A stretch of DNA of 64,000 nt from Spirochaetaceae bacterium (GCA_003559765.1 PWKH01000184.1:12857-76856); one strand, 5' to 3'. Shown: positions 45,235-56,373, numbered from the stretch's first letter. The notes: generated by a model from the sequence alone, not told the origin. Translations and numbers: made by a program.

Positions 45235-45915
45235 ATGTTCATGCTTGAAGCAATACTCACCCAGCTTGCACCGGCGTCGGTTGTGCCCTTTGATCTGCAG
45301 GACCGTCAGGCGGTTGTGTTTGATTTCACTGAATCCAGCGAAGCTGTGCAGAGCATAGATCCCGCTGAAACCTCGAAATTCACGGAATTTATCGAGGGAG
45401 AGCTCAGCAGATGCTGCGCTGAGTTCGGAGTCGGCAGATATAACGAGGATCGGCTGATCTACCGCAAAAGCTCCCTGTTTGCAGGCAGTGAACCCCGGAG
45501 CATTCATCTCGGTATCGACATCCTCGCCCCGGCGGGCACTGCGGTATGCGCCCCGTGCGACGGCAGAGTGCACAGTTTTCAGGACAATCGGGGCTTCGGG
45601 GACTACGGCCCGACAATCATCCTGGAACATACCCAGGGAGGGTTCACCTGGTACACACTCTACGGTCATCTCTCCCGGGAGTCTCTGACACAGCTGGAGG
45701 AAGGGAAAGCAATTGCCGCAGGCAGTGAATTCGCCCGCTTCGGCAGCGAACAGGAGAACGGCCGATGGCCTCCGCATCTGCATTTTCAGATCATCAGGGA
45801 CCTGGAGGGCAGACGGGGGGATTATCCCGGGGTGTGCGCTGCCTCTCAGCGGAGCTGGTATCTGAAGAACTGCCCGGACCCGCAGCTGCTGCTGAACATC
45901 AGATCCCTCGATTAG
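45235..45915 (+). CDS. Peptidase M23 family protein (no signal peptide)
   Basis: HLGIDI.APAGTAV.AP.DG...GDYGPTIILEH...YGHL...PHLHFQI M23 motifs. Confidence 0.7.
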   Translation: MFMLEAILTQLAPASVVPFDLQDRQAVVFDFTESSEAVQSIDPAETSKFTEFIEGELSRCCAEFGVGRYNEDRLIYRKSSLFAGSEPRSIHLGIDILAPAGTAVCAPCDGRVHSFQDNRGFGDYGPTIILEHTQGGFTWYTLYGHLSRESLTQLEEGKAIAAGSEFARFGSEQENGRWPPHLHFQIIRDLEGRRGDYPGVCAASQRSWYLKNCPDPQLLLNIRSLD

Positions 45916-48368
45916 GCTCTGATGAAAAACTCACGGTTCGTCGCCACGGTCATTCCCTCAACCGGGATGACCGGACATCCGTCCTCATCGATTTCCACGG
46001 TTTCTGGCCACTGAAAATCCTCCTGCATGGATGCAAAGAGGCTGAAATCACAGCCGCGGAGCTTCACATGCACCCGTTCTGGTCCGCTTCGGACGATGAC
46101 AGCGGTCAGGTTAAAGTCCGCGTCCCCCAGGGCCGTCCTGATCACATACAGGGGCACCTCCCGTCCGCTCTGATGCCTCCGCAGATGGGTGGCAATGGTG
46201 ATCACCGTCGAGGCGTCCACCGGACGGCTGCGGTTCCACCACTGCTGCACAGGCATGCCGGCAGCATAGAGACTGAACAGCTCAATGCCGATCTGGCGGC
46301 TGTAGTAGCATATCAGCTTCATCTCCTCCTCATGGTCATTGATTCCCGATAGCAGCAGCAGGTTGCAGTAGACTGTTACTCCCGCCGAGGAGAACCGGCG
46401 GATGATCTCACTGTGGAGGGCGCTGAATTCGCTGGAGTGGATGAACTGGGTCTCCATTTCCACCCGAAAAGGATTTGCCGCCCGGAGCTGATTGAGCTTT
46501 ACAATGCGGCCGATCAGCTCTTCATCGAACAGCTGGGGCTCATAGGCAAGTTTCAGACTCCGCAGCCGCAGAGCCTGGACATGGGGGATTGCCCGGAGGC
46601 GGCGGGCAATCATCTCAATTTGATCCAGATGATCAATGCAGTCATCCCTGGCGGCCAGTACCACTTCCCTGATATCCTCACATCCCTTGATGCAGGCAAG
46701 CATCTCCTTCAGGCGTTCATATTCCCCGAGATCCAGTTCAACCCGGGTCTTATGGATTCTGCACACCCCCGCTGTCCCGGTTTCAACGATGCTCTGGGTC
46801 ACCCGCTGGTCCTCCAGCACCTTCAGCTGCACCTCCCGCAGGTCCGCCATATTCAGATCGAAGGGCTGTCCGTCCTGCATGTCGAAATGGCCCAGAAAGA
46901 GCCGGTCATCGCCGATATCCGCCATGAAACGGCTTAAGATGCTGCCGTCATGGTGCTCCCGGGCTTCCTGCAGTACAAAGGAGGGAACAAACTCCTTGAA
47001 ATACTGGTCCGTATAGGGGGTCCGCAGCCAGATGTATCTGGGATCCTGGGCATCCGGCTCGACTGCCCATCCGCTGACGTTCCAGTCGATTTTGCCCACC
47101 TTGCTGGCGGTGCAGAGTATCGGCATAGCCCGGTCGCTGAGATGAGACCGCAGATATGCCGCCGCTCTATGGCCGTCAGACAGGGGCGTCCAGTACACTT
47201 TGTTCCCCTGGATGGGACTGCAGGGAATATAGATGTAATGAATCTCCGAACCCGCCGCCCGGAGCTCCCGGTACAGCTGGGCCAGTTCCTCTCCGGAGTC
47301 GTTGCAGTCCTTCAGAAAGGGTGTCTGGGTATACACGCCGATCCCGCTTTTCACCAGTTCGCTGATGATCTCAAGGCTGTAGACAGAAATTTCATCAGGG
47401 TGGATGAAATGGGTGGCAATTTCAATACGCTTGTTCCGCTGCTGCAGCTCCCGGTTTTTCCCGGTAAGATACTTCAGCCAGAAGGAGTCCTTGTTGGAGA
47501 ACAGCTGAGGATAATAGGAGATGCACCGGGATGCAATCCGGATGGTCTGGATGTGTTCAATCTGCTGCAGCCCTTCAACGGCACAGGTGAGGGTCTCCCG
47601 GTTCAGCAGGGGCTCTACCCCGGTAAGCACGATCTCCTTGATCCGGGGAGAATCGGCGATATGATCAAGGGCCCGGCGGACGTCCTCAATGGTCGGTGCC
47701 GGCTGGTTCCTGCAGTCCTTGTGCTTGCGGAAGCAGAATCTGCAGTATACCGGACAGCTCATATGGAGCACGAATATCGGCCGGTTCTGGTACATCTGCT
47801 CAAGCACTCCCTGGTGGAACTGACCGACCCAGGTATTCTTCAGCCCCGTCGAGTCGAGCTCCTCTGCAAATGGCATGAACTGGTATCCCACAGCCCAGGA
47901 GATCCTCGCCTGCCGCACGGTGTGCATCGAAAGTCTCACCGGATAGGTGTCCAGCACCAGCTGAAGATCATCCCGCCGGTCCTCGGGAACCCTGGTGTTT
48001 GCCGCCGCCTCGTACTGGTCAACCGTGGTGATGCTCATCAGTTCATCCCCGGGAATCACCGCCTCAAGGATCGGAAGCAGCAGCCGCTTCGGCAGAGCAA
48101 CGCCGCTGACCGCAACGTCCCGGGGCTGCTCATGGCTGGACTGCTCCAGCTGCTGCAGAACTGATTCGAAGAATTCCCGGTCAGTGCAGCCGCAGGAGCG
48201 CAGCAGGGCGGCAAAGGGCTCATCCCCCGCGGTCATTTCGGCAAACTCCCGCCCCAGATATGAGGATGCGCCGAATCGGCGCAGAAAGTCATCCAGCCGA
48301 CCGGCCAGCTCTCCGACGGAAATCTCAGTGCCGCCTAACCGGTCATGAAACGTCAGCATATCCTGCAT
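45912..48368 (-). CDS. KamA-family radical SAM protein with internal tandem duplication (lysine-2,3-aminomutase-like, 818 aa)
   Basis: CPVYCRFCFRKH (CxxxCxxC KamA-type) in first half; second half repeats the KamA barrel-like segments (VQALRLRSLKLAYEPQLF..., AGVTVYCNLLLLSGIND...) without the Cys triad. Confidence 0.75.
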   Translation of the reverse strand: MQDMLTFHDRLGGTEISVGELAGRLDDFLRRFGASSYLGREFAEMTAGDEPFAALLRSCGCTDREFFESVLQQLEQSSHEQPRDVAVSGVALPKRLLLPILEAVIPGDELMSITTVDQYEAAANTRVPEDRRDDLQLVLDTYPVRLSMHTVRQARISWAVGYQFMPFAEELDSTGLKNTWVGQFHQGVLEQMYQNRPIFVLHMSCPVYCRFCFRKHKDCRNQPAPTIEDVRRALDHIADSPRIKEIVLTGVEPLLNRETLTCAVEGLQQIEHIQTIRIASRCISYYPQLFSNKDSFWLKYLTGKNRELQQRNKRIEIATHFIHPDEISVYSLEIISELVKSGIGVYTQTPFLKDCNDSGEELAQLYRELRAAGSEIHYIYIPCSPIQGNKVYWTPLSDGHRAAAYLRSHLSDRAMPILCTASKVGKIDWNVSGWAVEPDAQDPRYIWLRTPYTDQYFKEFVPSFVLQEAREHHDGSILSRFMADIGDDRLFLGHFDMQDGQPFDLNMADLREVQLKVLEDQRVTQSIVETGTAGVCRIHKTRVELDLGEYERLKEMLACIKGCEDIREVVLAARDDCIDHLDQIEMIARRLRAIPHVQALRLRSLKLAYEPQLFDEELIGRIVKLNQLRAANPFRVEMETQFIHSSEFSALHSEIIRRFSSAGVTVYCNLLLLSGINDHEEEMKLICYYSRQIGIELFSLYAAGMPVQQWWNRSRPVDASTVITIATHLRRHQSGREVPLYVIRTALGDADFNLTAVIVRSGPERVHVKLRGCDFSLFASMQEDFQWPETVEIDEDGCPVIPVEGMTVATNREFFIRA

Positions 48369-48513: not shown

Positions 48514-48565
48514 TTACCTATTAAACCAAACGACTGCCCGACGGGGCAGTCTGAAAGAGGAGCGT

Positions 48566-49069
48566 ATGCCGGACCAGGATGTGGAAATAACGATCCGACC
48601 GATGGATATTGACGATTTGGCCCCAGCCTATCATCTCGGGGAGAAACTGTTCACCCTCAGCGCCTTTCCCAATCTCTACCGCATCTGGGATGAATATGAA
48701 ATCATCGATTTTTTTCATGACAGTTCGGACTACTGCTTCAGCGCCTTTGCCGACAGCAAGCTGGTCGGGTTTCTTCTCGGCACGGTCATCGAGAAGACGA
48801 AGAAGCGGAAATACGGCTATCTGGTCTGGACGGGAGTGGACAGCGACTTCGGCCGCCTCGGCATCGCCTCCCAGCTCTTTGACGCCTTCAAAGAGCTCTG
48901 TGTTGAGGAACAGGTCTCCATGATTATCGTGGACACCCAGGCTGACAACTACACGGCAATCGATTTTTTCACCAGCAAGGGGTTCGGGGACGCCCAGGAC
49001 CATGTATACCTCACCCTGGATCTCAGGCGGGACGATGATCCCCGCCGACCTGTCAGGGAGGGGGAATAA
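48566..49069 (+). CDS. GNAT family N-acetyltransferase
   Basis: Acetyl-CoA-binding region VGFLLG...GVDSDFGRLGIASQLF; start ATG 48566 after GAGGAG. Confidence 0.75.
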   Translation: MPDQDVEITIRPMDIDDLAPAYHLGEKLFTLSAFPNLYRIWDEYEIIDFFHDSSDYCFSAFADSKLVGFLLGTVIEKTKKRKYGYLVWTGVDSDFGRLGIASQLFDAFKELCVEEQVSMIIVDTQADNYTAIDFFTSKGFGDAQDHVYLTLDLRRDDDPRRPVREGE

Positions 49070-49073
49070 GCCT

Positions 49074-50171
49074 ATGCCGGTACAAGAAAAGCGGCTGCTG
49101 CAGCTTACCGCAGACCTGGTGAACATCTACAGCCCGACGGGCAAGGAGCTGGAGGTTGTGGATTTTCTCCGGGAGTATATTTCCGGAAAGGGACTGCCAG
49201 CCGTAATGCAGGATGTAGAGGAGGAGAAGCAGCGGCAGAATCTGCTGATTATGCCCGAGGGAGACACACCTGCCCTGTGCCTCAACGGCCATGTTGATAC
49301 GGTTGCAGCTTCAGACTACGACAGCTATGAGTTGTATGAGGAGGAAGATGAGCTCTACGGTCTCGGCACCAGCGACATGAAGGGGGGCTGCGCCGCCATG
49401 ATTGAAGCCTTCCACGCTTTCTACGAGGACACCGGCAGGCTTCCCGACGCCCTGCTGGCCCTGGTGGTCGGAGAGGAGGAGACCGGCGACGGCAGCAGTG
49501 CCCTGCTTGAAGAGTATAATTTCTCCTGGGCGGTCATCGGAGAGCCGACGGAACTGCTGCCCTGCTTTCAGCACTACGGTTACATTGAGGCGAATTTCCA
49601 TACCCGGGGAAGGCGGATGCATGCATCCATGGCCCGCCGGGAGGTGAACGCTGTCCACGCCATGCTCGGAGCGCTGCTGAACCTGACGGACTATCTCGGA
49701 GCTGAGAAGGAAGACATTATTTTTAATATCCGGGACGTATTCAGCGCCCGTTCGGGATTCGTCGTACCGGACTACTGCGAGGCGTGGCTGGATCTGCATA
49801 TTCCTCCGGAATACCCCGCGGGAACCATTATCTATGAAATTGAAGAATTCGTTCGCAGGATCTTTCCGAAGGAGGATATTGAGGAGATCCTCAATTTCAC
49901 TACCCTCCGGTCCGGGTACTCCCTTCCCGAAAAGGGACCCTTTGCCGAGACGCTCCAGCAGGTGTTCAGCGACTGCGGCAGAACATGGCTCACTTCCCGG
50001 TTTCTCAGCGATTCCGATGCGCTGACTTTCTGGGAGAACGGAGTGCGGCCGGTGATCCTCGGTCCGGGTTCGCTGGAGAAGGCCCATCGGGATGATGAAT
50101 CGGTAAAGCGGGATCAGCTGATTGATGCCGCCAGGGTGTACTACCGTCTGCTGCAGGCGGTTTCATCCTAG
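49074..50171 (+). CDS. M20 family peptidase/deacylase (ArgE/DapE-like)
   Basis: M20 metal-binding pattern HVDTV...GTSDMKGG...EEETG; 4 nt after GNAT stop. Confidence 0.75.
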   Translation: MPVQEKRLLQLTADLVNIYSPTGKELEVVDFLREYISGKGLPAVMQDVEEEKQRQNLLIMPEGDTPALCLNGHVDTVAASDYDSYELYEEEDELYGLGTSDMKGGCAAMIEAFHAFYEDTGRLPDALLALVVGEEETGDGSSALLEEYNFSWAVIGEPTELLPCFQHYGYIEANFHTRGRRMHASMARREVNAVHAMLGALLNLTDYLGAEKEDIIFNIRDVFSARSGFVVPDYCEAWLDLHIPPEYPAGTIIYEIEEFVRRIFPKEDIEEILNFTTLRSGYSLPEKGPFAETLQQVFSDCGRTWLTSRFLSDSDALTFWENGVRPVILGPGSLEKAHRDDESVKRDQLIDAARVYYRLLQAVSS

Positions 50172-50231
50172 CACTTGACTGCTGCCGGTTTCCGCTGCAC
50201 CTTGAAGGTATCAGCAGGAAGGAGGAATACG

Positions 50232-51203
50232 ATGGAATATCGAAAGCTTGGGAACAGTGATCTGGACATAACCACCGTCGGGCTCGGCGCCTGGGCAATT
50301 GGAGGCGGAGCGTACGCCTACGGATGGGGCCCCCAGGACGATGCGCAGTCAGTACGGACCATCCATGCGGCTGTGGACAGCGGGATAAACTGGATCGACA
50401 CCGCACCGGTGTACGGGCTCGGTCGGTCTGAGTCGGTTACCGGGCAGGCGCTGAAGGATAGGAGAAGCTCGGTCGTTCTTTCAACAAAATGCGGTCTCAT
50501 CTGGGATGAACCAACCCGGGAGGTGACCGGTCACCTGAAAAAGGAGAGCGTGTTTCAGGAATGCGAAGCAAGTCTGAAGCGGCTGGATACCGACTACATC
50601 GACCTGTACCATATCCACTGGCCGAGGCCGGAGGAGCAGATAGAGGAAGCCTGGGAGGCGGTCGCCCAGCTGATCAGGGACGGGAAGGTCCGCTTCGGGG
50701 CAGTAAGCAACTTCTCCCCTGAACAGATGGACCGTGTCAGCAGGATTCACCCGGTTACTTCCCTTCAGCCGCCCTACAGCATGCTGGAACGTGGAATTGA
50801 GGATGAGATACTACCCTACTGCCGGGACCACCATATCGGTATAACTGTATACAGCCCCATGCAGGCGGGACTTTTAACCGGAAAACTGACTCGTCATCGG
50901 ATCGAACAGCTTCCTGATGATGACTGGCGCAGACGCAGCAGGCACATGCGTGAGCCGAATTTGACTGCGAATCTGGAACTGGCTGACGCCCTGACGGAAA
51001 TTGCAGCGGACTACGGGAAAACCCCTGGCCAGCTGGCCGTTGCCTGGACTCTCCGGGATCCGGCAGTGACGGCGGCGATCGTCGGTGCGAGAAAGCCGGA
51101 ACAGGCTGCCCAGAATGCGGGAGCCTCAGGCTGGGAGCTTTCCGACATCGTGCTGCAGCGGATCAGCAAGGTTTTGGAGCGGCACCGGCAGGCAATCGGT
51201 TAA
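50232..51203 (+). CDS. Aldo/keto reductase
   Basis: YRKLGNSDL..IS.LGLG.W, DTAPVYG, LYHIHWP AKR signatures; RBS AGGAGG. Confidence 0.85.
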   Translation: MEYRKLGNSDLDITTVGLGAWAIGGGAYAYGWGPQDDAQSVRTIHAAVDSGINWIDTAPVYGLGRSESVTGQALKDRRSSVVLSTKCGLIWDEPTREVTGHLKKESVFQECEASLKRLDTDYIDLYHIHWPRPEEQIEEAWEAVAQLIRDGKVRFGAVSNFSPEQMDRVSRIHPVTSLQPPYSMLERGIEDEILPYCRDHHIGITVYSPMQAGLLTGKLTRHRIEQLPDDDWRRRSRHMREPNLTANLELADALTEIAADYGKTPGQLAVAWTLRDPAVTAAIVGARKPEQAAQNAGASGWELSDIVLQRISKVLERHRQAIG

Positions 51204-51309
51204 ACGGAGTGATTTCTGTCTTGCATCGTATTGACATACTTTGCACTTTCAGTTAGTCTTGGCTAACTACATTACTGAATTCTAACAGCCACACTGGAAG
51301 GCGTTTTCT

Positions 51310-51903
51310 ATGATCATTGCACCGGTTATCGCAAATTTTGAGAAATGGTGTTCCCGGTTTCCCTGGGCTGTACGGCTTTATTCGCTGCCCTACCGGACGG
51401 TCCTTGACCGGGAAATCGGTCTGGCCGGGATCACTGAAGATGATGTGGTCCTGAACATCGGCTGCGGCTCAGTTCCCTTTACTGCCATCTATATTGCCGC
51501 AGTGACCGGAGCTCGGGTCCATGCGGTTGACATTGACGAGTCCGCCCTTATCTGCGCCCGCAGATGCACCGCGGCTGCGGGACTGGATGACCGGGTCACC
51601 TATGAGCATGCTTCGGGGGAAAGTACAAGCTGCCGGGAGTTCACTGCCGCAGTGACTGCGCTTCAGGCAAGACCGAAGGCCGGCATCCTCGCCCATCTGC
51701 TCAGGCAGGGATCTTCGGATGTCCGGATTATTTTCAGAAAGCCCCAGCCCCGTCTGCACAGTCAGTACGATATGATTCCCGGATCCTACCCGATTTCCGG
51801 GGAGGTGATTCAGAACATGAAGACCTTTGTCAGCTCAGTACTCTATACCCATATGCCGGGATACAGCGAGACCTTCTGCCGATCCCTTCAGGAGGCGGAA
51901 TGA
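51310..51903 (+). CDS. Nicotianamine-synthase-like / class I SAM-binding fold protein (short)
   Basis: VLNIGCGSVPFTAIYIA...VHAVDIDESAL resembles the NAS motif GSGPLPLTS...FDIDPSA; stop TGA overlaps next ATG. Confidence 0.6.
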   Translation: MIIAPVIANFEKWCSRFPWAVRLYSLPYRTVLDREIGLAGITEDDVVLNIGCGSVPFTAIYIAAVTGARVHAVDIDESALICARRCTAAAGLDDRVTYEHASGESTSCREFTAAVTALQARPKAGILAHLLRQGSSDVRIIFRKPQPRLHSQYDMIPGSYPISGEVIQNMKTFVSSVLYTHMPGYSETFCRSLQEAE

Positions 51904-52154
51904 TGAAGAAGGCCGGCGCTGCCGCCGCCGCATCTGCGGCTCTCTGCGCCTATGCGTCAGGCATGATGTTCCTGTTTCCCGGGGGGCTCGGAGCCTTTGA
52001 AGCGACAATTGCCCTGGTGCTCCGACCGGCACCCTTCCGGTTTTCTCCGGCGTGTTCAGGAATCTGCGCGCTTTCGCTGGTTTGTGCTCCGTCTCGGAAC
52101 CGGCCTGCTGAGCCGGTTCATTCTGCACCCCTGACACACGAGGTATCCCCATGA
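51900..52154 (+). CDS. Small Ala/Pro-rich hydrophobic protein (84 aa), translationally coupled
   Basis: ATGA overlaps at both ends (51900-51903 and 52151-52154), GGAGG RBS 5 nt upstream; no homology recognised. Confidence 0.35.
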   Translation: MMKKAGAAAAASAALCAYASGMMFLFPGGLGAFEATIALVLRPAPFRFSPACSGICALSLVCAPSRNRPAEPVHSAPLTHEVSP

Positions 52155-52996
52155 CCGAAAAAGTTCAACTCCGCCGTCACCGCCGACGTCGCGGCGCCAT
52201 GAAAGGCGTTGCACGGCCGTCACTGCAGGCAGTTAAGTTTTTTGAGCACCTGAGTTCAAAGCACTCCTTCTTCAGCAGGCAGTATAATCGGCTGTTCTAT
52301 CACCGGCTGGTGCACAGTGAAGTGGCCGCCGCACAGCTGAAGCCCGGAAGCAGGGTGCTGCACATCGGCTGCGGCCCCATGCCCTTCACCTCCTTCGAAC
52401 TGGCCCAGGCAGGAGCAGTTGTAACCGCCGTCGATATTGACCCGCGGGCGGTGGAGAAAGCCCGGCAGGCCGCCGTATCAGCGGGGCTTGCTTCAGAGAT
52501 CACCGTCCTGCTCATGGACGGTATGGATGTTGATCCGAGGCAGTATGACGGGATCTGGGTATCCCTCCATGTATCCCCGAAGGATGAACTCATACCGAAT
52601 CTGCTCAGAAAGATGAGTGACGAATCGGTGCTGGTCTACCGCAATCCGAGGGGATGGCTGAGGCTCTGGTACGGCCGCTGCCGCCAGCCGGTGAGGCAGC
52701 GGGTCGTCAGGCAGTTCCTCGGCAAGGAGAGCATCATCATCCAGAAGCAGGAAGTCACCGAGGAGGTGCCCCTCTCCGAGCTCTATCCGGGAGCCGCAGG
52801 CACCATCGTTCATGTACCGGAACATCCCCTGCTCTCCCCTCTGGGAGTACGGAAGGGCAAGCACATTGCCGTTACCGGCAGGTGCATGCTCGGGGGACCG
52901 ATTGTAGTGGCAGTCGACGGCAGGAGCAGTGCAATACACCGTTCGCTGGCCCAGAATGTGCACATCATACCTGAACACAGCACCAGGACGGCGTAA
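52151..52996 (+). CDS. Nicotianamine-synthase-like domain fused to C-terminal FeoA domain
   Basis: VLHIGCGPMPFTSFELA...VTAVDIDPRAV...DVD...ESVLVYRNPRGW aligns with NAS core; C-terminal LSELYPGAAGTIVHV...LGVRKGKHIAVTGRCMLGGPIVVAVDGRSSAIHRSLAQNVHI is an SH3-like FeoA; 2 nt before feoB. Confidence 0.65.
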   Translation: MTEKVQLRRHRRRRGAMKGVARPSLQAVKFFEHLSSKHSFFSRQYNRLFYHRLVHSEVAAAQLKPGSRVLHIGCGPMPFTSFELAQAGAVVTAVDIDPRAVEKARQAAVSAGLASEITVLLMDGMDVDPRQYDGIWVSLHVSPKDELIPNLLRKMSDESVLVYRNPRGWLRLWYGRCRQPVRQRVVRQFLGKESIIIQKQEVTEEVPLSELYPGAAGTIVHVPEHPLLSPLGVRKGKHIAVTGRCMLGGPIVVAVDGRSSAIHRSLAQNVHIIPEHSTRTA

Positions 52997-52998
52997 CT

Positions 52999-54801
52999 AT
53001 GGATGAATCAGCTTCCCCTCGCGCATCAGTACTGCTGATGGGACCTCCCAATGTCGGCAAAAGCGTTCTGTTCAACCACTTTACCGGCATGGAGGTGAGC
53101 TGCGCCAACTACATCGGCACCACCGTGGAATACTCCACCGGAGAGTTCCGCGGCATGAGCCGGGACACCCTGCTTATCGACGTCCCCGGTACCTACACCC
53201 TGGAGGCTTCAAACGAAGCCGAAGAGGTGGCTGTGCGCATGCTCGCCAACCCCCCGTCAAGCAGAGATGAGATCAGACACAGCTCCTCCCACTGCGAACC
53301 GACGTCGAAACATGACCCCTCCAAACCCTCCGCAGTACTCTGCGTGCTTGATGCAGTGAACCTAGAAAGCAGCCTGTATCTGCTCTCCTATATTCTCGAC
53401 TACCGTCTGCCGGTGGTTGCCGCACTCAACCGCATCGACATCGCGAAGAAAAAAGGAATCCACGTCAGCCACGAAAAGCTCTCCCACATCCTGGGCATTC
53501 CGGTAGTGCCCACCATCGCTCCGACCGGAGCGGGAACAGAGGAACTGAAGCAGCAGCTTGAAAAGCTCCTCTCAGCCGGCGGGCAGGCAGAAACAGCCAG
53601 GCATCAGAGTACTGATCCGCTGCAGCGCTGGAAACGGGTTGAGGATATTGCCGCCCGGGTACAGCACCGGGAAAAGCAGCCTGAACACCGAAGCACCTTC
53701 GATGAACTGCTGATCCGTCCGTGGCCGGGGCTTCCAATTGCGGTGCTGATCCTGCTGGGCTCATTCGGTCTGGTAGTCGGACTCGGCATGGGCCTCCGGC
53801 AGTTTCTCCTGCTGCCGCTGTTCCGGGGATATGTGTTCCCCCTGATTATCTCCGGGGTGGAATCACTGCTGCAGCCGGGGATGCTGCAGCGCATCCTCAT
53901 CGGTGAATACGGGTTTCTCATCAAGGGAATTGAATGGCCCTTCACCCTGGTGTTCCCCTATGTGCTCTCCTTCTATCTCGCCATGGCGGTGCTGGAAGAC
54001 AGCGGATACCTCCCGAGACTCGGGGCGCTGCTCGACGGCCTGTTCAACCGCCTCGGCATGTCCGGAGGCAGCATCATTCCCCTGCTGCTCGGATACGGCT
54101 GCGCGATCCCTGCCATTATGGCCACCAGGGCGCTTCATACACGCAAAGAACGCCTGATAGCAGTATCAATCATCTGCCTCACCATCCCGTGCATTTCCCA
54201 GACCGGTGCGATCATCACCCTGCTGGCGGAGCACTCGGCAGCAGTGGTTTTCGGTCTTGCTGTTTTTTCCCTCATAGCGGTGGCTTCCACGGGGCTGCTG
54301 CTGGAGAAGCTGCTCCACGGCCCCCTCCCTGCTATGGTGATTGAGCTTCCCGAGCTGCTGCCGCCGAGGCCTTCGGTGCTGGGGAAGAAGCTGGCAATCC
54401 GGAGCAAGCGTTTTATATCTGACGGAGCGGTTCCAATGATCGGAGCAGTGGGACTGGCCTCAGTGCTCTATGAATCGGGGCTCATGACAGCGGCGGGACG
54501 GGTGCTCTCACCGCTGGTAACCCTGTGGCTCAGACTGCCTGAAGAGGCCGCTGTTCCCCTGATCCTCGGGATTATGCGCCGGGAGCTTTCCATCCTGCCG
54601 CTGCTGGAAATGGATTTAACTGCACTGCAGCTGTTCACTGGTGCGCTGGTAGGGCTGTTCTATGTACCCTGCATCGCCGTCGTAGTTTCAATCGCCCGGG
54701 AGTTCAAGCTCACCACTGCCCTGCTGATCCTGCTGACGACAAGCACCACGGCTTTTCTGGTCGGCGGAATTGTGGCACAGATCGGAGGACTGCTCATTTG
54801 A
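52999..54801 (+). CDS. feoB: Ferrous iron transport protein B
   Basis: G-domain GPPNVGKS, DVPGTY, NRID; polytopic C-terminal membrane domain with gate motifs. Confidence 0.9.
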   Translation: MDESASPRASVLLMGPPNVGKSVLFNHFTGMEVSCANYIGTTVEYSTGEFRGMSRDTLLIDVPGTYTLEASNEAEEVAVRMLANPPSSRDEIRHSSSHCEPTSKHDPSKPSAVLCVLDAVNLESSLYLLSYILDYRLPVVAALNRIDIAKKKGIHVSHEKLSHILGIPVVPTIAPTGAGTEELKQQLEKLLSAGGQAETARHQSTDPLQRWKRVEDIAARVQHREKQPEHRSTFDELLIRPWPGLPIAVLILLGSFGLVVGLGMGLRQFLLLPLFRGYVFPLIISGVESLLQPGMLQRILIGEYGFLIKGIEWPFTLVFPYVLSFYLAMAVLEDSGYLPRLGALLDGLFNRLGMSGGSIIPLLLGYGCAIPAIMATRALHTRKERLIAVSIICLTIPCISQTGAIITLLAEHSAAVVFGLAVFSLIAVASTGLLLEKLLHGPLPAMVIELPELLPPRPSVLGKKLAIRSKRFISDGAVPMIGAVGLASVLYESGLMTAAGRVLSPLVTLWLRLPEEAAVPLILGIMRRELSILPLLEMDLTALQLFTGALVGLFYVPCIAVVVSIAREFKLTTALLILLTTSTTAFLVGGIVAQIGGLLI

Positions 54802-54909: not shown

Positions 54910-56373
54910 ATGAACAAAAAAAGATCACATCCGTTAACAACCGTTGCAGGAGCACCGGTAGTCGACAACCAGAACTCAACCACCGCGGGACCGCGGGGTC
55001 CCATGCTGCTTCAGGACGTCTGGTACCTGGAAAAGCTTGCCCATTTTGATCGGGAAGTGATTCCTGAGCGAAGAATGCACGCAAAGGGATCCGGGGCCTT
55101 CGGAACCTTTACCGTTACCCATGACATCACGAAATATACCCGGGCAAAGGTGTTCTCTGAAGTGGAAAAAACCACGGATCTTTTCATCAGGTTTTCCACG
55201 GTAGCCGGCGAGCGCGGCGCCGCCGATGCGGAACGGGATATCCGGGGATTTGCCGTCAAGTTCTATACCGAAGAGGGGAACTGGGACCTGGTAGGAAACA
55301 ATACTCCGGTGTTTTTCCTGCGCGACCCTCTGAAGTTTCCCGATCTCAACCATGCGGTGAAGCGCGACCCCAGGACCAATCTGAGAAGCCCCAATACCAA
55401 CTGGGACTTCTGGTCCTCCCTCCCGGAGGCGCTGCACCAGGTGACCATCACCATGAGCGACCGGGGAATACCGCTTTCCTACCGGCATATGAACGGCTAT
55501 GGAAGCCATGCTTTCAGCATGATCAATGAAAAGAATGAACGGATCTGGGTGAAGTTCCATTTGAAGACTCAGCAGGGAATCAAAAATCTCACCGACCAGG
55601 AAGCAGAAGAGCTGGTGGGGAAAGACCGGGAAAGTCATCAGCGGGATCTCTATGAAAGCATTGAACAGGGAAATTTCCCCCGCTGGACCATGTACATTCA
55701 GGTCATGACCGAAGCGCAGGCCGAGCAGATGCCCTACAATCCCTTTGATCTTACCAAGGTATGGTATAAAAGCGAGTTCCCCCTGATCGAAGTGGGATTT
55801 ATCGAGCTCAATAAGAACCCCGACAACTACTTTGCCCAGGTTGAGCAGGCGGCCTTCAACCCCGCCCATATCGTGCCGGGCATTGGATTCTCCCCGGACA
55901 AAATGCTCCAGGGACGGCTGTTCTCCTACGGGGACGCCCAGCGCTACCGCCTCGGGGTCAACCACCATCAGATCCCGGTCAACGCCCCGAAGTGCCCGGT
56001 CAACAGCTACCACCGGGACGGTCAGATGCGGGTGAACAGCAATGCCGGAAGCACCATCGGGTATGAACCGAACAGCTACAAAAAATGGCAGGAGCAGCCG
56101 GAATTCAGCGAACCTCCCCTGAAGCTCAGCGGAGACGCCTATCACTGGGACTTCAGGGAGGATGACGACGACTACTACACCCAGCCGGGGAAACTCTTCG
56201 CTATGATGTCGCCTGAACAGAAGCAGGTGCTCTTTGAAAACACCGCCAGAAACCTGGGAGACAGCAGTGAGCAGATAAAAATCAGACACATTAAGAACTG
56301 CCTGGCAGCCCATGCCGATTACGGCAAGGGCGTGGCGAAAGCCTTAGACATACCCCTTGAGCAGGTGAAGTAG
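54910..56373 (+). CDS. Catalase (monofunctional haem catalase)
   Basis: RERIPERVVHAKG-like ([12 protein letters not shown]), distal His region, FDRERIPERVVHA family hallmarks, 487 aa. Confidence 0.9.

What the first reader, a model, noticed from the sequence alone, without database searches (positions are those of the whole stretch)
51204..54801. Tandem nicotianamine-synthase-like proteins, a coupled 84-aa peptide and a NAS-like::FeoA fusion directly upstream of FeoB
Four ORFs are chained by ATGA or 2-nt junctions (51900-51903, 52151-54, 52994-52999), so they are almost certainly one translationally coupled operon. ORF 1 and the N-terminal 190 aa of ORF 3 both carry the nicotianamine-synthase hallmark (G-C-G-[SP]-[VM]-P-F-T, then V.AVDID...A, then D.DV...VL...R..G). 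NAS is the family that makes aminobutyrate-based metallophores (nicotianamine, staphylopine-type xNA via CntL). ORF 3 ends in a bona fide FeoA SH3-like domain and FeoB follows 2 nt later. A metallophore-type synthase domain covalently fused to FeoA is not an arrangement I know. It suggests either local synthesis of a small Fe(II) ligand handed to FeoB, or a SAM-sensing regulatory FeoA. An aldo/keto reductase (50232-51203) immediately upstream and a catalase downstream fit a metal/redox theme. No CntM-type opine dehydrogenase is present.
Basis: partly seen in the sequence, partly recalled or inferred. Interest (0 to 1): 0.8.

Follow-up and report, generated by a model that had tools for sequence, protein, structure and literature searches.

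The report
Nicotianamine-synthase-like enzyme pair wired to FeoB
A ferrous-iron importer (FeoB) is encoded together with two shortened relatives of the enzyme that makes the metal chelator nicotianamine, one of them fused to the FeoB partner FeoA; the module recurs in many phyla of soda-lake anaerobes, I found no paper describing it, and it probably makes an iron ligand right at the transporter.

Summary
ORF1 (51310-51903), ORF3 (52151-52996) and FeoB (52999-54801) form a tightly packed operon. ORF1 and the first ~200 residues of ORF3 are paralogous, truncated NAS-type proteins. Their best sequence and fold matches are MtNAS and CntL, and the catalytic Glu/Tyr positions are invariant. ORF3 ends in a true FeoA domain.

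The fusion is not an artefact. It recurs in 38 of the 150 best family representatives and in about 15 loci. Unfused versions (B, then FeoA, then FeoB) and other fusions (A::B::FeoA, TM::B, TM::B::FeoA) also exist.

The "84-aa coupled peptide" is wrong. It is the relic of a ~300-aa MprF-flippase-like membrane gene (PF03706) that is intact in relatives.

The module (A, ±TM, B, FeoA, FeoB) occurs across bacterial phyla and methanogens, mostly from soda lakes. It often has a Fur box upstream.

The aldo/keto reductase and catalase neighbours are lineage-specific.

Best reading: a Feo-tethered pair of SAM aminocarboxypropyl transferases makes a nicotianamine-like Fe(II) ligand. The chemistry and product are inferred, not shown. 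New variant of a known kind; interest 0.72.

The parts
51231..51236 (+). Putative -35 hexamer TTGACA of the operon promoter
   Evidence: Invariant in the alignment of the upstream regions of the window, L001 and L007. The generic promoter scan did not call it because the -10 is weak (TAGTCT after a 17-nt spacer). Inferred, not shown.
51251..51268 (.). Palindromic operator candidate AGTTAG-N6-CTAACT overlapping the presumed -10
   Evidence: Perfect 6+6 inverted repeat. It is conserved at the same place in L001 and L007 and occurs only once in the 64-kb window. It is not a Fur box (10/19 matches). The regulator is unknown.
51310..51903 (+). ORF1: 'mini-NAS' paralog A (197 aa), a stand-alone truncated NAS-like SAM-binding protein; candidate catalytic Glu11 and Tyr28 (also Tyr24, Glu35)
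51900..52154 (+). ORF2: 84-codon relic of a PF03706 (LPG_synthase_TM, MprF-flippase-like) membrane protein gene; keeps the old start, the FPGGLGAFE motif region and the old stop overlap
   Evidence: Pfam PF03706 gives 19.7 bits, below the 33.4 cut-off, matching only profile positions 239-288 of 302. BLASTP to the 301-aa gene at the same position in L001 aligns aa 10-41 with 218-249 at 47% identity. tblastn with 12 intact homologues hits only this stretch, and there is no other copy in the window. The closest relative L011 has no ORF here at all.
52151..52750 (+). ORF3 N-terminal domain: 'mini-NAS' paralog B (aa 1-~200); candidate catalytic Glu32 and Tyr50 (also Tyr45, Glu57); basic tail RRHRRRRG at aa 8-15
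52766..52966 (+). ORF3 C-terminal FeoA domain (aa 206-272), in the same reading frame as paralog B
   Evidence: Pfam FeoA 42.1 bits against a cut-off of 23. The profile hits FeoA structures 2k5i and 3e19. The model shows a small all-beta domain with pLDDT above 90. The same fusion is found in 38 of 150 family representatives.
52999..54801 (+). FeoB (600 aa), Fe(II) permease with N-terminal GTPase; G1 GPPNVGKS, G3 DVPG, G4 NRID read from the sequence; Cys/His-rich insertion at aa ~84-110
   Evidence: Pfam FeoB_N 139.6 bits and Gate x2 99.5 bits. TIGR00437 gives 285.6 bits, slightly below its 315.65 cut-off. Identity to the FeoBs of the same module in other phyla and in archaea is 45-79%, against 25% for the second FeoB of Methanocalculus. 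Insertion.

Best explanation
The operon encodes a ferrous-iron uptake module. Two paralogous, N-terminally truncated nicotianamine-synthase-type enzymes work together with FeoA and FeoB: A is ORF1, and B is the first ~200 residues of ORF3.

Shown:
- Both paralogs sit on the NAS/CntL branch by sequence profile and by fold.
- Both keep the SAM-binding G-x-G-x-x-P-x-T motif and the Glu/Tyr positions that NAS enzymes use to deprotonate the acceptor amine.
- Both are under purifying selection.
- B is covalently joined to FeoA here. Elsewhere B is joined to A (A::B::FeoA) or to an MprF-flippase-like membrane protein (TM::B, TM::B::FeoA).
- The gene set travels with its own FeoB clade across phyla and domains.
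- Many copies carry a Fur box.
- Most known hosts are soda-lake anaerobes.

Inferred:
- A and B (probably as a heterodimer) transfer 3-amino-3-carboxypropyl units from SAM to an amine acceptor. The product would be a nicotianamine-like polyaminocarboxylate ligand for Fe(II).
- The FeoA domain docks this synthase on the cytoplasmic N-terminal domain of FeoB. Ligand would then be made where Fe(II) leaves the permease. That would keep Fe(II) soluble and unreactive in an alkaline cytoplasm.
- In the full ancestral module the TM protein moves the product, which may be lipid-linked, to the outer face.
- In this window the TM gene has decayed to the 84-codon ORF2, so only the inner-face function can remain.
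- Expression is probably metal-controlled through the conserved palindrome over the promoter.
For: NAS affiliation:
- Pfam NAS is above threshold for ORF3.
- PDB profile searches rank MtNAS and CntL 5-10 orders of magnitude ahead of any methyltransferase for both families.

Catalytic positions:
- MtNAS Glu81/Tyr107 and AtNAS1 E77/Y106 are the catalytic pair (PMC10491745, PMC10248798).
- ORF3 Y50 and ORF1 Y28 align with Tyr107.
- ORF3 E32 and ORF1 E11 align with CntL Glu84, the residue mutated in PDB entry 7c9k.
- E, Y, Y, E, GxG, P, D, R and Y are invariant across 32 A and B sequences.

Functional coupling:
- Gene order A-(TM)-B-FeoA-FeoB, or permutations of it, holds in about 30 loci.
- Fusion proteins link the parts: B::FeoA in 38 of 150 representatives, TM-containing fusions in 4 of 150, A::B::FeoA (P0088, followed by FeoB) and TM::B::FeoA (P0101).
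- FeoA is known to bind and stabilise GTP-bound FeoB (PMC8980893).

Iron link:
- Sites matching at least 14 of 19 positions of the Fur consensus lie within 150 nt upstream in 10 of 27 loci. The rate is 0.7% in control windows, and shuffles predict 0.22 loci.

Selection: dN/dS is 0.14-0.19.

Habitat: 22 of 36 species-level genome hits carry Kulunda soda-lake sample codes, and further hits are named natronophiles.
Against: - No product, acceptor or activity is known for any member of this family.
- The first ~80 residues of the NAS N-terminal domain, which help enclose the reaction chamber in MtNAS, are missing (Pfam match covers only positions 107-235 of 276). The acceptor may therefore be something quite different, or the proteins may not be catalytic alone.
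- The alignment of the Glu to CntL E84 has low per-column confidence. It could not be checked against MtNAS Glu81 in three dimensions.
- No opine dehydrogenase, exporter, MTA-salvage gene or ligand-uptake receptor is consistently linked.
- FeoB is generally thought to carry free Fe2+.
- The TM gene is dispensable: it is lost here and in about half of the loci.
- This window's own promoter has no Fur box (10/19).
- Three deltaproteobacterial loci lack paralog A.
Confidence: 0.5

Rival explanations
1. Lipid modification, by MprF logic. B (with A) adds aminocarboxypropyl groups to the amine of a membrane lipid headgroup on the inner leaflet. The PF03706 protein flips the modified lipid outward, giving a membrane-anchored Fe(II)-binding surface beside FeoB. 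In the window the flippase is lost, so the modified lipid would stay on the inner leaflet.
For: - TM::B and TM::B::FeoA fusions (L033, P0101, P0172) have the same layout as MprF: an N-terminal PF03706 flippase followed by a cytosolic lipid-modifying domain (PMC8131360, PMC4324311).
- The characterised PF03706 protein I could document, MprF, handles lipids.
- Loss of the NAS N-terminal lid would open the active site to a bulky acceptor.
- The basic linker at the ORF3 N-terminus resembles the TM-B linker in P0101.
Against: - The TM gene is absent or decayed in about half of the loci, including this one, while A, B and FeoB stay under selection.
- No NAS-family enzyme is known to act on lipids.
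- The known lipid aminocarboxypropyl transferase BtaA is unrelated (PMC10491745).
Confidence: 0.15
2. A and B are SAM-dependent methyltransferases, or carry out some other SAM chemistry. They act on a small molecule or on FeoB/FeoA itself and only resemble NAS by descent.
For: - The fold is the class I methyltransferase fold.
- Generic Pfam methyltransferase models also pass their thresholds (Methyltransf_25: 35.8 and 27.3 bits against 27).
- The best NCBIfam hit for ORF3 is a putative methyltransferase family, CpaM (47.5 bits, far below its 180 cut-off).
Against: - Profile searches prefer the two characterised aminocarboxypropyl transferases by 5-10 orders of magnitude.
- The NAS-specific G-x-G-P/A-x-P-x-T motif, the two helices bearing the invariant Glu and Tyr, and the conserved PK and R/Y positions shared with MtNAS are all retained.
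Confidence: 0.15
3. Regulatory pseudoenzyme. The NAS-like domain only binds SAM, MTA or a related metabolite. Through FeoA it tunes FeoB GTPase or transport to the cell's methionine, sulfur or polyamine status.
For: - It is fused to FeoA, a regulatory partner of FeoB (PMC8980893).
- It lacks the N-terminal acceptor-enclosing domain.
- No pathway partners (dehydrogenase, exporter) are consistently linked.
Against: - The catalytic Glu and Tyr positions are invariant in both paralogs over deep divergence.
- A second, unfused paralog is almost always co-encoded, and the two are sometimes fused together. That fits a two-subunit enzyme better than a sensor.
- In many loci B is not fused to FeoA at all.
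Confidence: 0.1
4. The ORF3 fusion is an assembly or frameshift artefact that joins two separate genes.
For: In nine related loci B and FeoA are separate adjacent genes.
Against: - The reading frame is continuous in the window.
- The same fusion, with the same junction, is present in independent assemblies from many phyla and sources.
- The AF2 model is confident across the junction.
Confidence: 0.01

Closest known systems
MtNAS, the thermonicotianamine synthase of Methanothermobacter thermautotrophicus (PDB 3fpe/3fpf/3o31), and plant/fungal nicotianamine synthases (Pfam PF03059)
   Same: - Best sequence-profile and best fold match for both paralogs.
- Same SAM-binding motif (G-G-G-P-L-P-L-T against G-C-G-P-M-P-F-T).
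- Same Tyr (Tyr107) and neighbouring Tyr102 and Glu114 positions.
- Shared 'PK' and 'YR...Y' positions.
- Stand-alone enzyme with no opine dehydrogenase partner.
   Different: - About 190-200 residues instead of about 265-280.
- The first ~80 residues of the helical N-terminal domain are missing.
- Occurs as two co-encoded paralogs.
- One paralog is fused to FeoA, or elsewhere to a membrane protein.
- Always next to FeoB.
- Product unknown.
CntL and the cnt operon (staphylopine, pseudopaline and yersinopine biosynthesis and transport)
   Same: - A NAS-like aminocarboxypropyl transferase encoded in one metal-regulated operon with a metal importer, and sometimes an exporter.
- The family Glu aligns with CntL Glu84.
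- CntL is the best PDB profile hit for ORF1.
   Different: - No CntM opine dehydrogenase and no CntK racemase.
- The importer is FeoB, not an ABC or TonB system.
- The NCBIfam CntL model scores 37 and 23 bits against a cut-off of 350.
- The enzyme is tethered to the transporter's partner protein.
- Hosts are anaerobic soda-lake organisms, not pathogens.
FeoA-FeoB systems, including natural FeoA::FeoB fusions (Bacteroides fragilis FeoAB)
   Same: - A bona fide FeoA SH3-like domain immediately upstream of a FeoB with an intact GTPase.
- There is precedent that FeoA can be covalently fused to a partner and that it acts on the N-terminal domain of FeoB.
   Different: - Here FeoA is fused at its N-terminus to an enzyme-like domain instead of to FeoB.
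- I found no report of FeoA fused to a NAS-like or methyltransferase-fold domain.
MprF (lysyl-phosphatidylglycerol synthase/flippase)
   Same: - The membrane component of the full module is a PF03706 protein.
- The TM::B fusions have the MprF layout: a flippase-like TM domain followed by a cytosolic modifying domain.
   Different: - The cytosolic domain is NAS-like, not the aminoacyl-tRNA-dependent GNAT-fold synthase.
- In this window only an 84-codon relic of the TM gene remains.

Membership tests
Nicotianamine synthase family (Pfam PF03059; MtNAS, CntL, plant NAS) | Scores at or above the Pfam gathering threshold (27.1 bits) | tested here: met
   ORF3 scores 40.4 bits, E 2.8e-10, but the match covers only profile positions 107-235 of 276. 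127 of the 150 best family representatives hit PF03059 at E <= 1e-3.
Nicotianamine synthase family (Pfam PF03059) - ORF1 | Scores at or above the Pfam gathering threshold (27.1 bits) | tested here: not met
   ORF1 scores 17.0 bits. Its affiliation rests on the family profile (CntL 2.4e-15, MtNAS 3.8e-12) and on the fold search.
Nicotianamine synthase family | Rossmann-type SAM-binding domain with the NAS-type motif G-x-G-(P/A)-x-P-x-T | tested here: met
   ORF1 has GCGSVPFT and ORF3 has GCGPMPFT, aligned to MtNAS GGGPLPLT and CntL GSGAYPMT. G, G, P and T are invariant or nearly so.
Nicotianamine synthase family | Catalytic Tyr (MtNAS Tyr107, AtNAS1 Tyr106) | tested here: met
   ORF3 Y50 and ORF1 Y28 align with the Tyr at index 107 of 3fpe in phmmer, hmmsearch and hhalign. 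The position is invariant in both paralog families. The role of this residue comes from PMC10491745 and PMC10248798.
Nicotianamine synthase family | Catalytic Glu (MtNAS Glu81, CntL Glu84, AtNAS1 Glu77) | tested here: met
   ORF3 E32 and ORF1 E11 are invariant. Both align with the CntL Glu that is Gln in the E84Q mutant entry 7c9k. Caveats: per-column confidence is low, and the equivalence to MtNAS Glu81 could not be checked in three dimensions.
Nicotianamine synthase family | Complete N-terminal helical domain (about 100 residues) that closes the reaction chamber | tested here: not met
Nicotianamine synthase family | Transfers the 3-amino-3-carboxypropyl group of SAM to an amine and releases MTA | not testable with these tools
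   Requires an enzyme assay.
CntL (NCBIfam NF033601, staphylopine biosynthesis enzyme) | Equivalog score of at least 350 bits | tested here: not met
   ORF1 scores 37.2 bits and ORF3 scores 22.6 bits.
Opine-type metallophore (cnt-like) pathway | CntM-type opine dehydrogenase encoded with the NAS-like enzyme | tested here: not met
   None in the operon. No opine dehydrogenase family appears among the Pfam-labelled neighbours of the distinct related loci returned. The rest of the 64-kb window was not scanned protein by protein.
FeoA (Pfam PF04023) | Scores above the gathering threshold and has a small SH3-like beta domain | tested here: met
   42.1 bits against 23 for aa 206-272. The profile hits FeoA structures 2k5i and 3e19. 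The model has five beta strands with pLDDT above 90.
FeoB | N-terminal GTPase (FeoB_N) with G1-G4 motifs, plus two Gate domains | tested here: met
   FeoB_N 139.6 bits and Gate 99.5 bits in two stretches. GPPNVGKS, DVPG and NRID were read from the sequence. The NCBIfam equivalog TIGR00437 scores 285.6 bits, just under its 315.65 cut-off.
LPG_synthase_TM / MprF-flippase-like (Pfam PF03706) - ORF2 | Full-length (~300 aa, about 8 TM helices) protein scoring above 33.4 bits | tested here: not met
   ORF2 has 84 aa and scores 19.7 bits, matching only profile positions 239-288. Intact 301-345-aa genes occupy this position in relatives.
Ordinary class I SAM-dependent methyltransferases | Generic methyltransferase-domain models pass threshold, and methyltransferases are the nearest characterised relatives | tested here: inconclusive
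   Methyltransf_25 passes for both (35.8 and 27.3 bits against 27), which only shows the shared fold. The nearest characterised relatives are not methyltransferases but MtNAS and CntL.
CpaM (NCBIfam NF043040, corrinoid protein-associated methyltransferase) | Score of at least 180 bits | tested here: not met
   47.5 bits for ORF3 and 36.0 bits for ORF1. No literature on this family was found.

The most novel reading that the evidence does not exclude
The module is a new kind of iron-acquisition device. A two-subunit minimal nicotianamine-synthase-type enzyme is docked by FeoA onto FeoB, and in the full version onto an MprF-like flippase. It builds an aminocarboxypropyl-based Fe(II) ligand, possibly as a lipid headgroup ('lipo-nicotianamine'), directly at the transporter. 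Synthesis, presentation and Fe(II) import would then be physically coupled. The module would have spread by horizontal transfer among bacteria and methanogens as an adaptation to the extreme scarcity of available Fe(II) in alkaline, carbonate- and sulfide-rich soda-lake sediments. It would also show that FeoA is a general adaptor that recruits accessory enzymes to FeoB.
Probability: 0.2. Interest if true: 0.9.

Novelty: new variant of a known kind. Interest (0 to 1): 0.72.

Why it matters
How FeoB works and what FeoA is for are long-standing open questions. A conserved fusion of FeoA to an enzyme-like domain, together with fusions that tie that domain to a second paralog and to a flippase-like membrane protein, gives a concrete and testable idea: FeoA is a docking module that brings accessory functions to FeoB.

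If the NAS-like pair is active, it would be the smallest known form of the nicotianamine-synthase fold. It would also be the first metallophore-type synthase linked to the Feo system, and a candidate Fe(II)-specific ligand pathway in strict anaerobes.

The strong bias towards soda-lake organisms from many phyla and both prokaryotic domains points to an adaptation for obtaining or handling iron at high pH, a subject on which my literature search found little.

Cultured carriers (Methanocalculus chunghsingensis, Ca. Methanocrinis natronophilus) and compact natural fusions (P0088, P0101) make the hypothesis directly testable.

Tried and rejected
- ORF2 as a genuine small coupled peptide: rejected. 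It is a relic of a PF03706 gene and is not conserved in the closest relative.
- Aldo/keto reductase, GNAT, M20 peptidase and catalase as parts of the system: rejected as general components. They are syntenic only in spirochaete relatives, and the reductase is separated by a conserved promoter/operator, plus a hairpin in L001.
- A Fur or DtxR/IdeR box in the window's own upstream region: not found (10/19 and 13/19 matches). The conserved palindrome there has a different spacing from DtxR boxes, and there is no second copy in the window.
- Exact look-up of the window's ORF3 protein in the contig index: not on record, so the source organism was not identified directly. The closest genome is a Spirochaetaceae soda-lake MAG at about 75% identity.
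- Cluster look-up gave no names or accessions.
- A fold search against afdb50 was not available.
- The MtNAS structure paper (Dreyfus 2009) is not held, so the roles of MtNAS residues other than Glu81 and Tyr107 could not be checked.
- Literature searches for NAS+FeoA, NAS-like+FeoB, FeoA domain fusions and CpaM found nothing relevant.
- The generic promoter and terminator scan gave nothing above chance in the operon.

Full report
**1. What is in the sequence**

Between 51204 and 54801 the + strand carries four ORFs:
- ORF1, 51310-51903, 197 aa
- ORF2, 51900-52154, 84 aa
- ORF3, 52151-52996, 281 aa
- FeoB, 52999-54801, 600 aa

There are ATGA overlaps at 51900-51903 and 52151-52154, and two bases lie between the ORF3 stop and the FeoB start. 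The 106-nt spacer is non-coding.

Pfam gives these scores:
- ORF3: FeoA 42.1 bits (aa 206-272); NAS 40.4 bits, above the 27.1 cut-off, but matching only profile positions 107-235 of 276.
- ORF1: only generic methyltransferase models pass. NAS scores 17 bits, below threshold.
- FeoB: FeoB_N plus two Gate domains.
- ORF2: a sub-threshold hit (19.7 bits) to the end of PF03706, the transmembrane region of MprF-type proteins.

**2. The fusion is real and the operon is under selection**

A search of 5.8 billion proteins with ORF3 found few relatives. Thirteen of them keep the NAS-like::FeoA architecture down to 35% identity. A profile search raised this to 21 fused and about 28 unfused relatives, all unnamed.

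An exhaustive HMMER search of 1.84 billion cluster representatives, using a profile of both paralogs, found 336 representatives at E <= 1e-30. Of the best 150:
- 127 hit Pfam NAS;
- 38 carry FeoA;
- 4 carry PF03706.

Against the closest relative (L011, a Spirochaetaceae soda-lake MAG), dN/dS is 0.19 for ORF1, 0.14 for ORF3 and 0.12 for FeoB. A frameshift or assembly artefact is excluded.

**3. ORF2 is a gene relic**

In a Spirochaetia MAG (L001/L012) the gene order is reductase - A - a 301-aa PF03706 protein - B::FeoA - FeoB - catalase. ORF2 aligns only with residues 218-249 of that protein, the FPGGLGxFE motif region.

Twelve intact homologues hit only this short stretch of the window, and no intact copy exists elsewhere in the 64 kb. 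L007 has a different 66-codon remnant at the same place. L011 has nothing there.

ORF2 keeps the old ribosome-binding site, the old start and the stop overlap. It may still be translated, but it is not a conserved peptide.

**4. The conserved module**

I compared all ORFs of 46 fetched loci with the window proteins by BLASTP and used the gene calls. They show a recurrent set:
- paralog A (ORF1 type, 180-200 aa);
- paralog B (ORF3 N-domain type);
- FeoA, fused to B in about 15 loci and a separate gene in nine;
- FeoB;
- in about 14 loci, a 300-345-aa PF03706 membrane protein (TM). It lies between A and B, after FeoB, or first (order TM-B-A-FeoA-FeoB in L049).

Three deltaproteobacterial loci lack A. 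Everything around the module differs from locus to locus.

Fusion proteins tie the parts together:
- A::B::FeoA (P0088, 592 aa, followed by FeoB);
- TM::B::FeoA (P0101);
- TM::B (P0172, L033).

The module's FeoBs are 45-79% identical across Spirochaetota, Bacillota, Actinomycetota, Thermotogaceae, Acetothermia, Desulfovibrionales and two methanogens. The second FeoB of Methanocalculus is only 25% identical. The module therefore moves as a unit together with its own FeoB.

**5. What the two paralogs are**

Sequence evidence from family profiles against all PDB sequences:
- B type: MtNAS 4.9e-19, CntL 4.4e-14, best methyltransferase 4.6e-9.
- A type: CntL 2.4e-15, MtNAS 3.8e-12, next best 1.2e-7.

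Catalytic positions: NAS enzymes use a Glu and a Tyr to deprotonate the acceptor amine. These are MtNAS Glu81/Tyr107, and AtNAS1 E77/Y106 are essential (PMC10491745, PMC10248798).
- ORF3 Y50 and ORF1 Y28 align with MtNAS Tyr107.
- ORF3 E32 and ORF1 E11 align with the CntL Glu that is Gln in the E84Q mutant entry 7c9k. Per-column confidence is low.

Across 32 A and B sequences the invariant residues, in ORF3 numbering, are E32, Y45, Y50, E57, G73, G75, P78, D95, R164 and Y174.

What is missing is the first ~80 residues of the NAS N-terminal domain. Only two helices precede the Rossmann domain. The proteins are therefore minimal NAS-like cores. They are members of the superfamily but not orthologues of MtNAS or CntL (NCBIfam CntL scores 37 and 23 bits against a cut-off of 350).

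**6. Regulation and habitat**

*Window promoter.* The upstream regions of the window, L001 and L007 share a TTGACA (51231-51236). They also share a perfect palindrome AGTTAG-N6-CTAACT (51251-51268) where the -10 should be. It occurs once in the window and is not a Fur box.

*Fur boxes elsewhere.* In other lineages the same position holds Fur-box-like sites:
- At least 14 of 19 matches to GATAATGATAATCATTATC lie within 150 nt upstream in 10 of 27 loci.
- The rate is 0.7% in 2151 control windows, and 4% in AT-rich control windows.
- Shuffles predict 0.22 loci.
- Examples are GATAATGGTTGTCATTATC in L035 and two TGAnAATCATTnTCA sites in L030.
- An actinobacterial locus has an IdeR-like TTAGGTGTACCTAA.

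Iron-responsive control is therefore likely for the module in general. For this window it is inferred by analogy.

*Habitat.* Of 36 hits among 185,579 species-level genomes, 22 are MAGs whose isolate names carry the Kulunda soda-lake sample codes (CSSed, CSBr, B1Sed, T1Sed, T3Sed). One of these codes, CSSed10, was checked and occurs in PMC6146748 and PMC6704655. Others are Fuchsiella alkaliacetigena and Ca. Methanocrinis natronophilus, and two of the 22 MAGs are assigned to Desulfonatronospira.

**7. How it most likely works**

Shown: homology to aminocarboxypropyl transferases with the catalytic positions kept; physical linkage of B to FeoA, to A and to the TM protein in different organisms; strict genomic linkage to a dedicated FeoB; purifying selection; Fur boxes.

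Inferred:
- A and B act together, probably as a heterodimer that rebuilds the pocket lost with the N-terminal domain. They transfer aminocarboxypropyl units from SAM to an amine, giving a nicotianamine-like Fe(II) ligand.
- FeoA, which binds and stabilises GTP-bound FeoB (PMC8980893), docks the synthase at the cytoplasmic face of FeoB.
- The TM protein, where present, moves the product outward.
- In this window the TM gene is dead, so the ligand would act inside the cell, receiving Fe(II) as it emerges.

From my own knowledge (not checked here): nicotianamine binds Fe(II) well at neutral to alkaline pH and makes it a poor Fenton reagent. That would fit organisms with an alkaline cytoplasm.

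I put this at about 0.5. The rivals are:
- lipid-headgroup modification by MprF logic (0.15);
- methyl transfer or other SAM chemistry (0.15);
- a SAM- or MTA-sensing pseudoenzyme (0.1);
- an artefact (0.01).

**8. Comparison with what is known, and novelty**

The closest systems are MtNAS and plant NAS, the cnt (staphylopine-type) operons, FeoA-FeoB fusions and MprF. Compared with these, the module has four distinguishing features:
- the enzymes are truncated and duplicated;
- there is no opine dehydrogenase;
- the importer is Feo;
- the enzyme is covalently attached to FeoA or to a flippase-like protein.

Full-text searches found no paper linking NAS-like proteins with FeoA or FeoB. None of the family members listed carries a functional name; one is labelled hypothetical protein, and one distant member is labelled an isoaspartate methyltransferase by JGI.

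I classify it as a new variant of a known kind: a metallophore-type synthase coupled to a metal importer. The unusual point is the physical coupling to the Feo system.

**9. Limits**

- No activity, product or acceptor is known.
- The Glu equivalence rests on low-confidence alignment columns.
- The source organism of the window was not identified. The closest genome is a Spirochaetaceae soda-lake MAG.
- The habitat statement rests on record titles.
- The linkage of all 336 family representatives to FeoB was not examined.

Noticed in passing
window 53248-53328 (FeoB aa ~84-110): There is a ~26-residue Cys/His/Ser-rich insertion (PPSSRDEIRHSSSHCEPTSKHDPSK) between the G3 and G4 motifs of the FeoB GTPase. 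Spirochaete relatives (L011, L001, L007) have it too. Desulfonatronospira (L039) has one at the same site with different sequence (CSHCREESDVC). The Firmicutes and archaeal FeoBs of the module lack it. It could be a metal-binding loop.
   Followed up: partly
window 52172-52195 (ORF3 aa 8-15): The N-terminus of ORF3 is very basic (RRHRRRRG) and has low model confidence. The linker between the membrane domain and B in the TM::B::FeoA fusion P0101 is similarly basic (KNRKGKEKREK). It may be a membrane-proximal linker left over from, or mimicking, the fused form.
   Followed up: no
window 48563-51203 and 54910-56373: A GNAT acetyltransferase, an M20 peptidase and an aldo/keto reductase lie upstream, and a catalase lies downstream. 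They are syntenic with the spirochaete relatives (L001, L006, L007) but not with module loci from other phyla. An unrelated AKR also lies 4 kb upstream, on the opposite strand, in L047. This is probably coincidence.
   Followed up: partly
window 45912-48368 (- strand): An 818-aa ORF has only a weak Radical_SAM hit (36.8 bits, aa 204-258, with a CxxxCxxC-type motif CPVYCRFC). It is about twice the length of lysine-2,3-aminomutase-like proteins. It was not characterised.
   Followed up: no
L014 (PWNW01000082.1), same MAG as L011: The closest relative's genome has a second locus with a PF03706 gene followed by a B-type mini-NAS (269 aa). The B-type protein has a C-terminal extension but no FeoA domain, and no FeoB lies downstream within the 4.1-kb contig.
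   Followed up: no
L040, L041 (Candidate Phyla Radiation genomes); P0037: Single-copy mini-NAS proteins (~183-188 aa) occur in Nealsonbacteria, Saccharibacteria and Tagabacteria with no FeoB nearby. They are about equally similar to A and B. The family extends beyond the Feo module: 1345 representatives at E <= 1e-10.
   Followed up: no
L043 10046-12112 (Methanocalculus chunghsingensis): A second, 688-aa FeoB lies 0.5 kb downstream of the module. It is only 25% identical to the module's FeoB. This organism is cultured and carries the full module (A, B::FeoA, FeoB, TM).
   Followed up: no
L001 6430-6460 (between the reductase and paralog A): The hairpin GCCCGG-CATTATT-CCGGGC, followed by a T-rich stretch, looks like a terminator between the reductase and the module. 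It is absent from the window's spacer.
   Followed up: no
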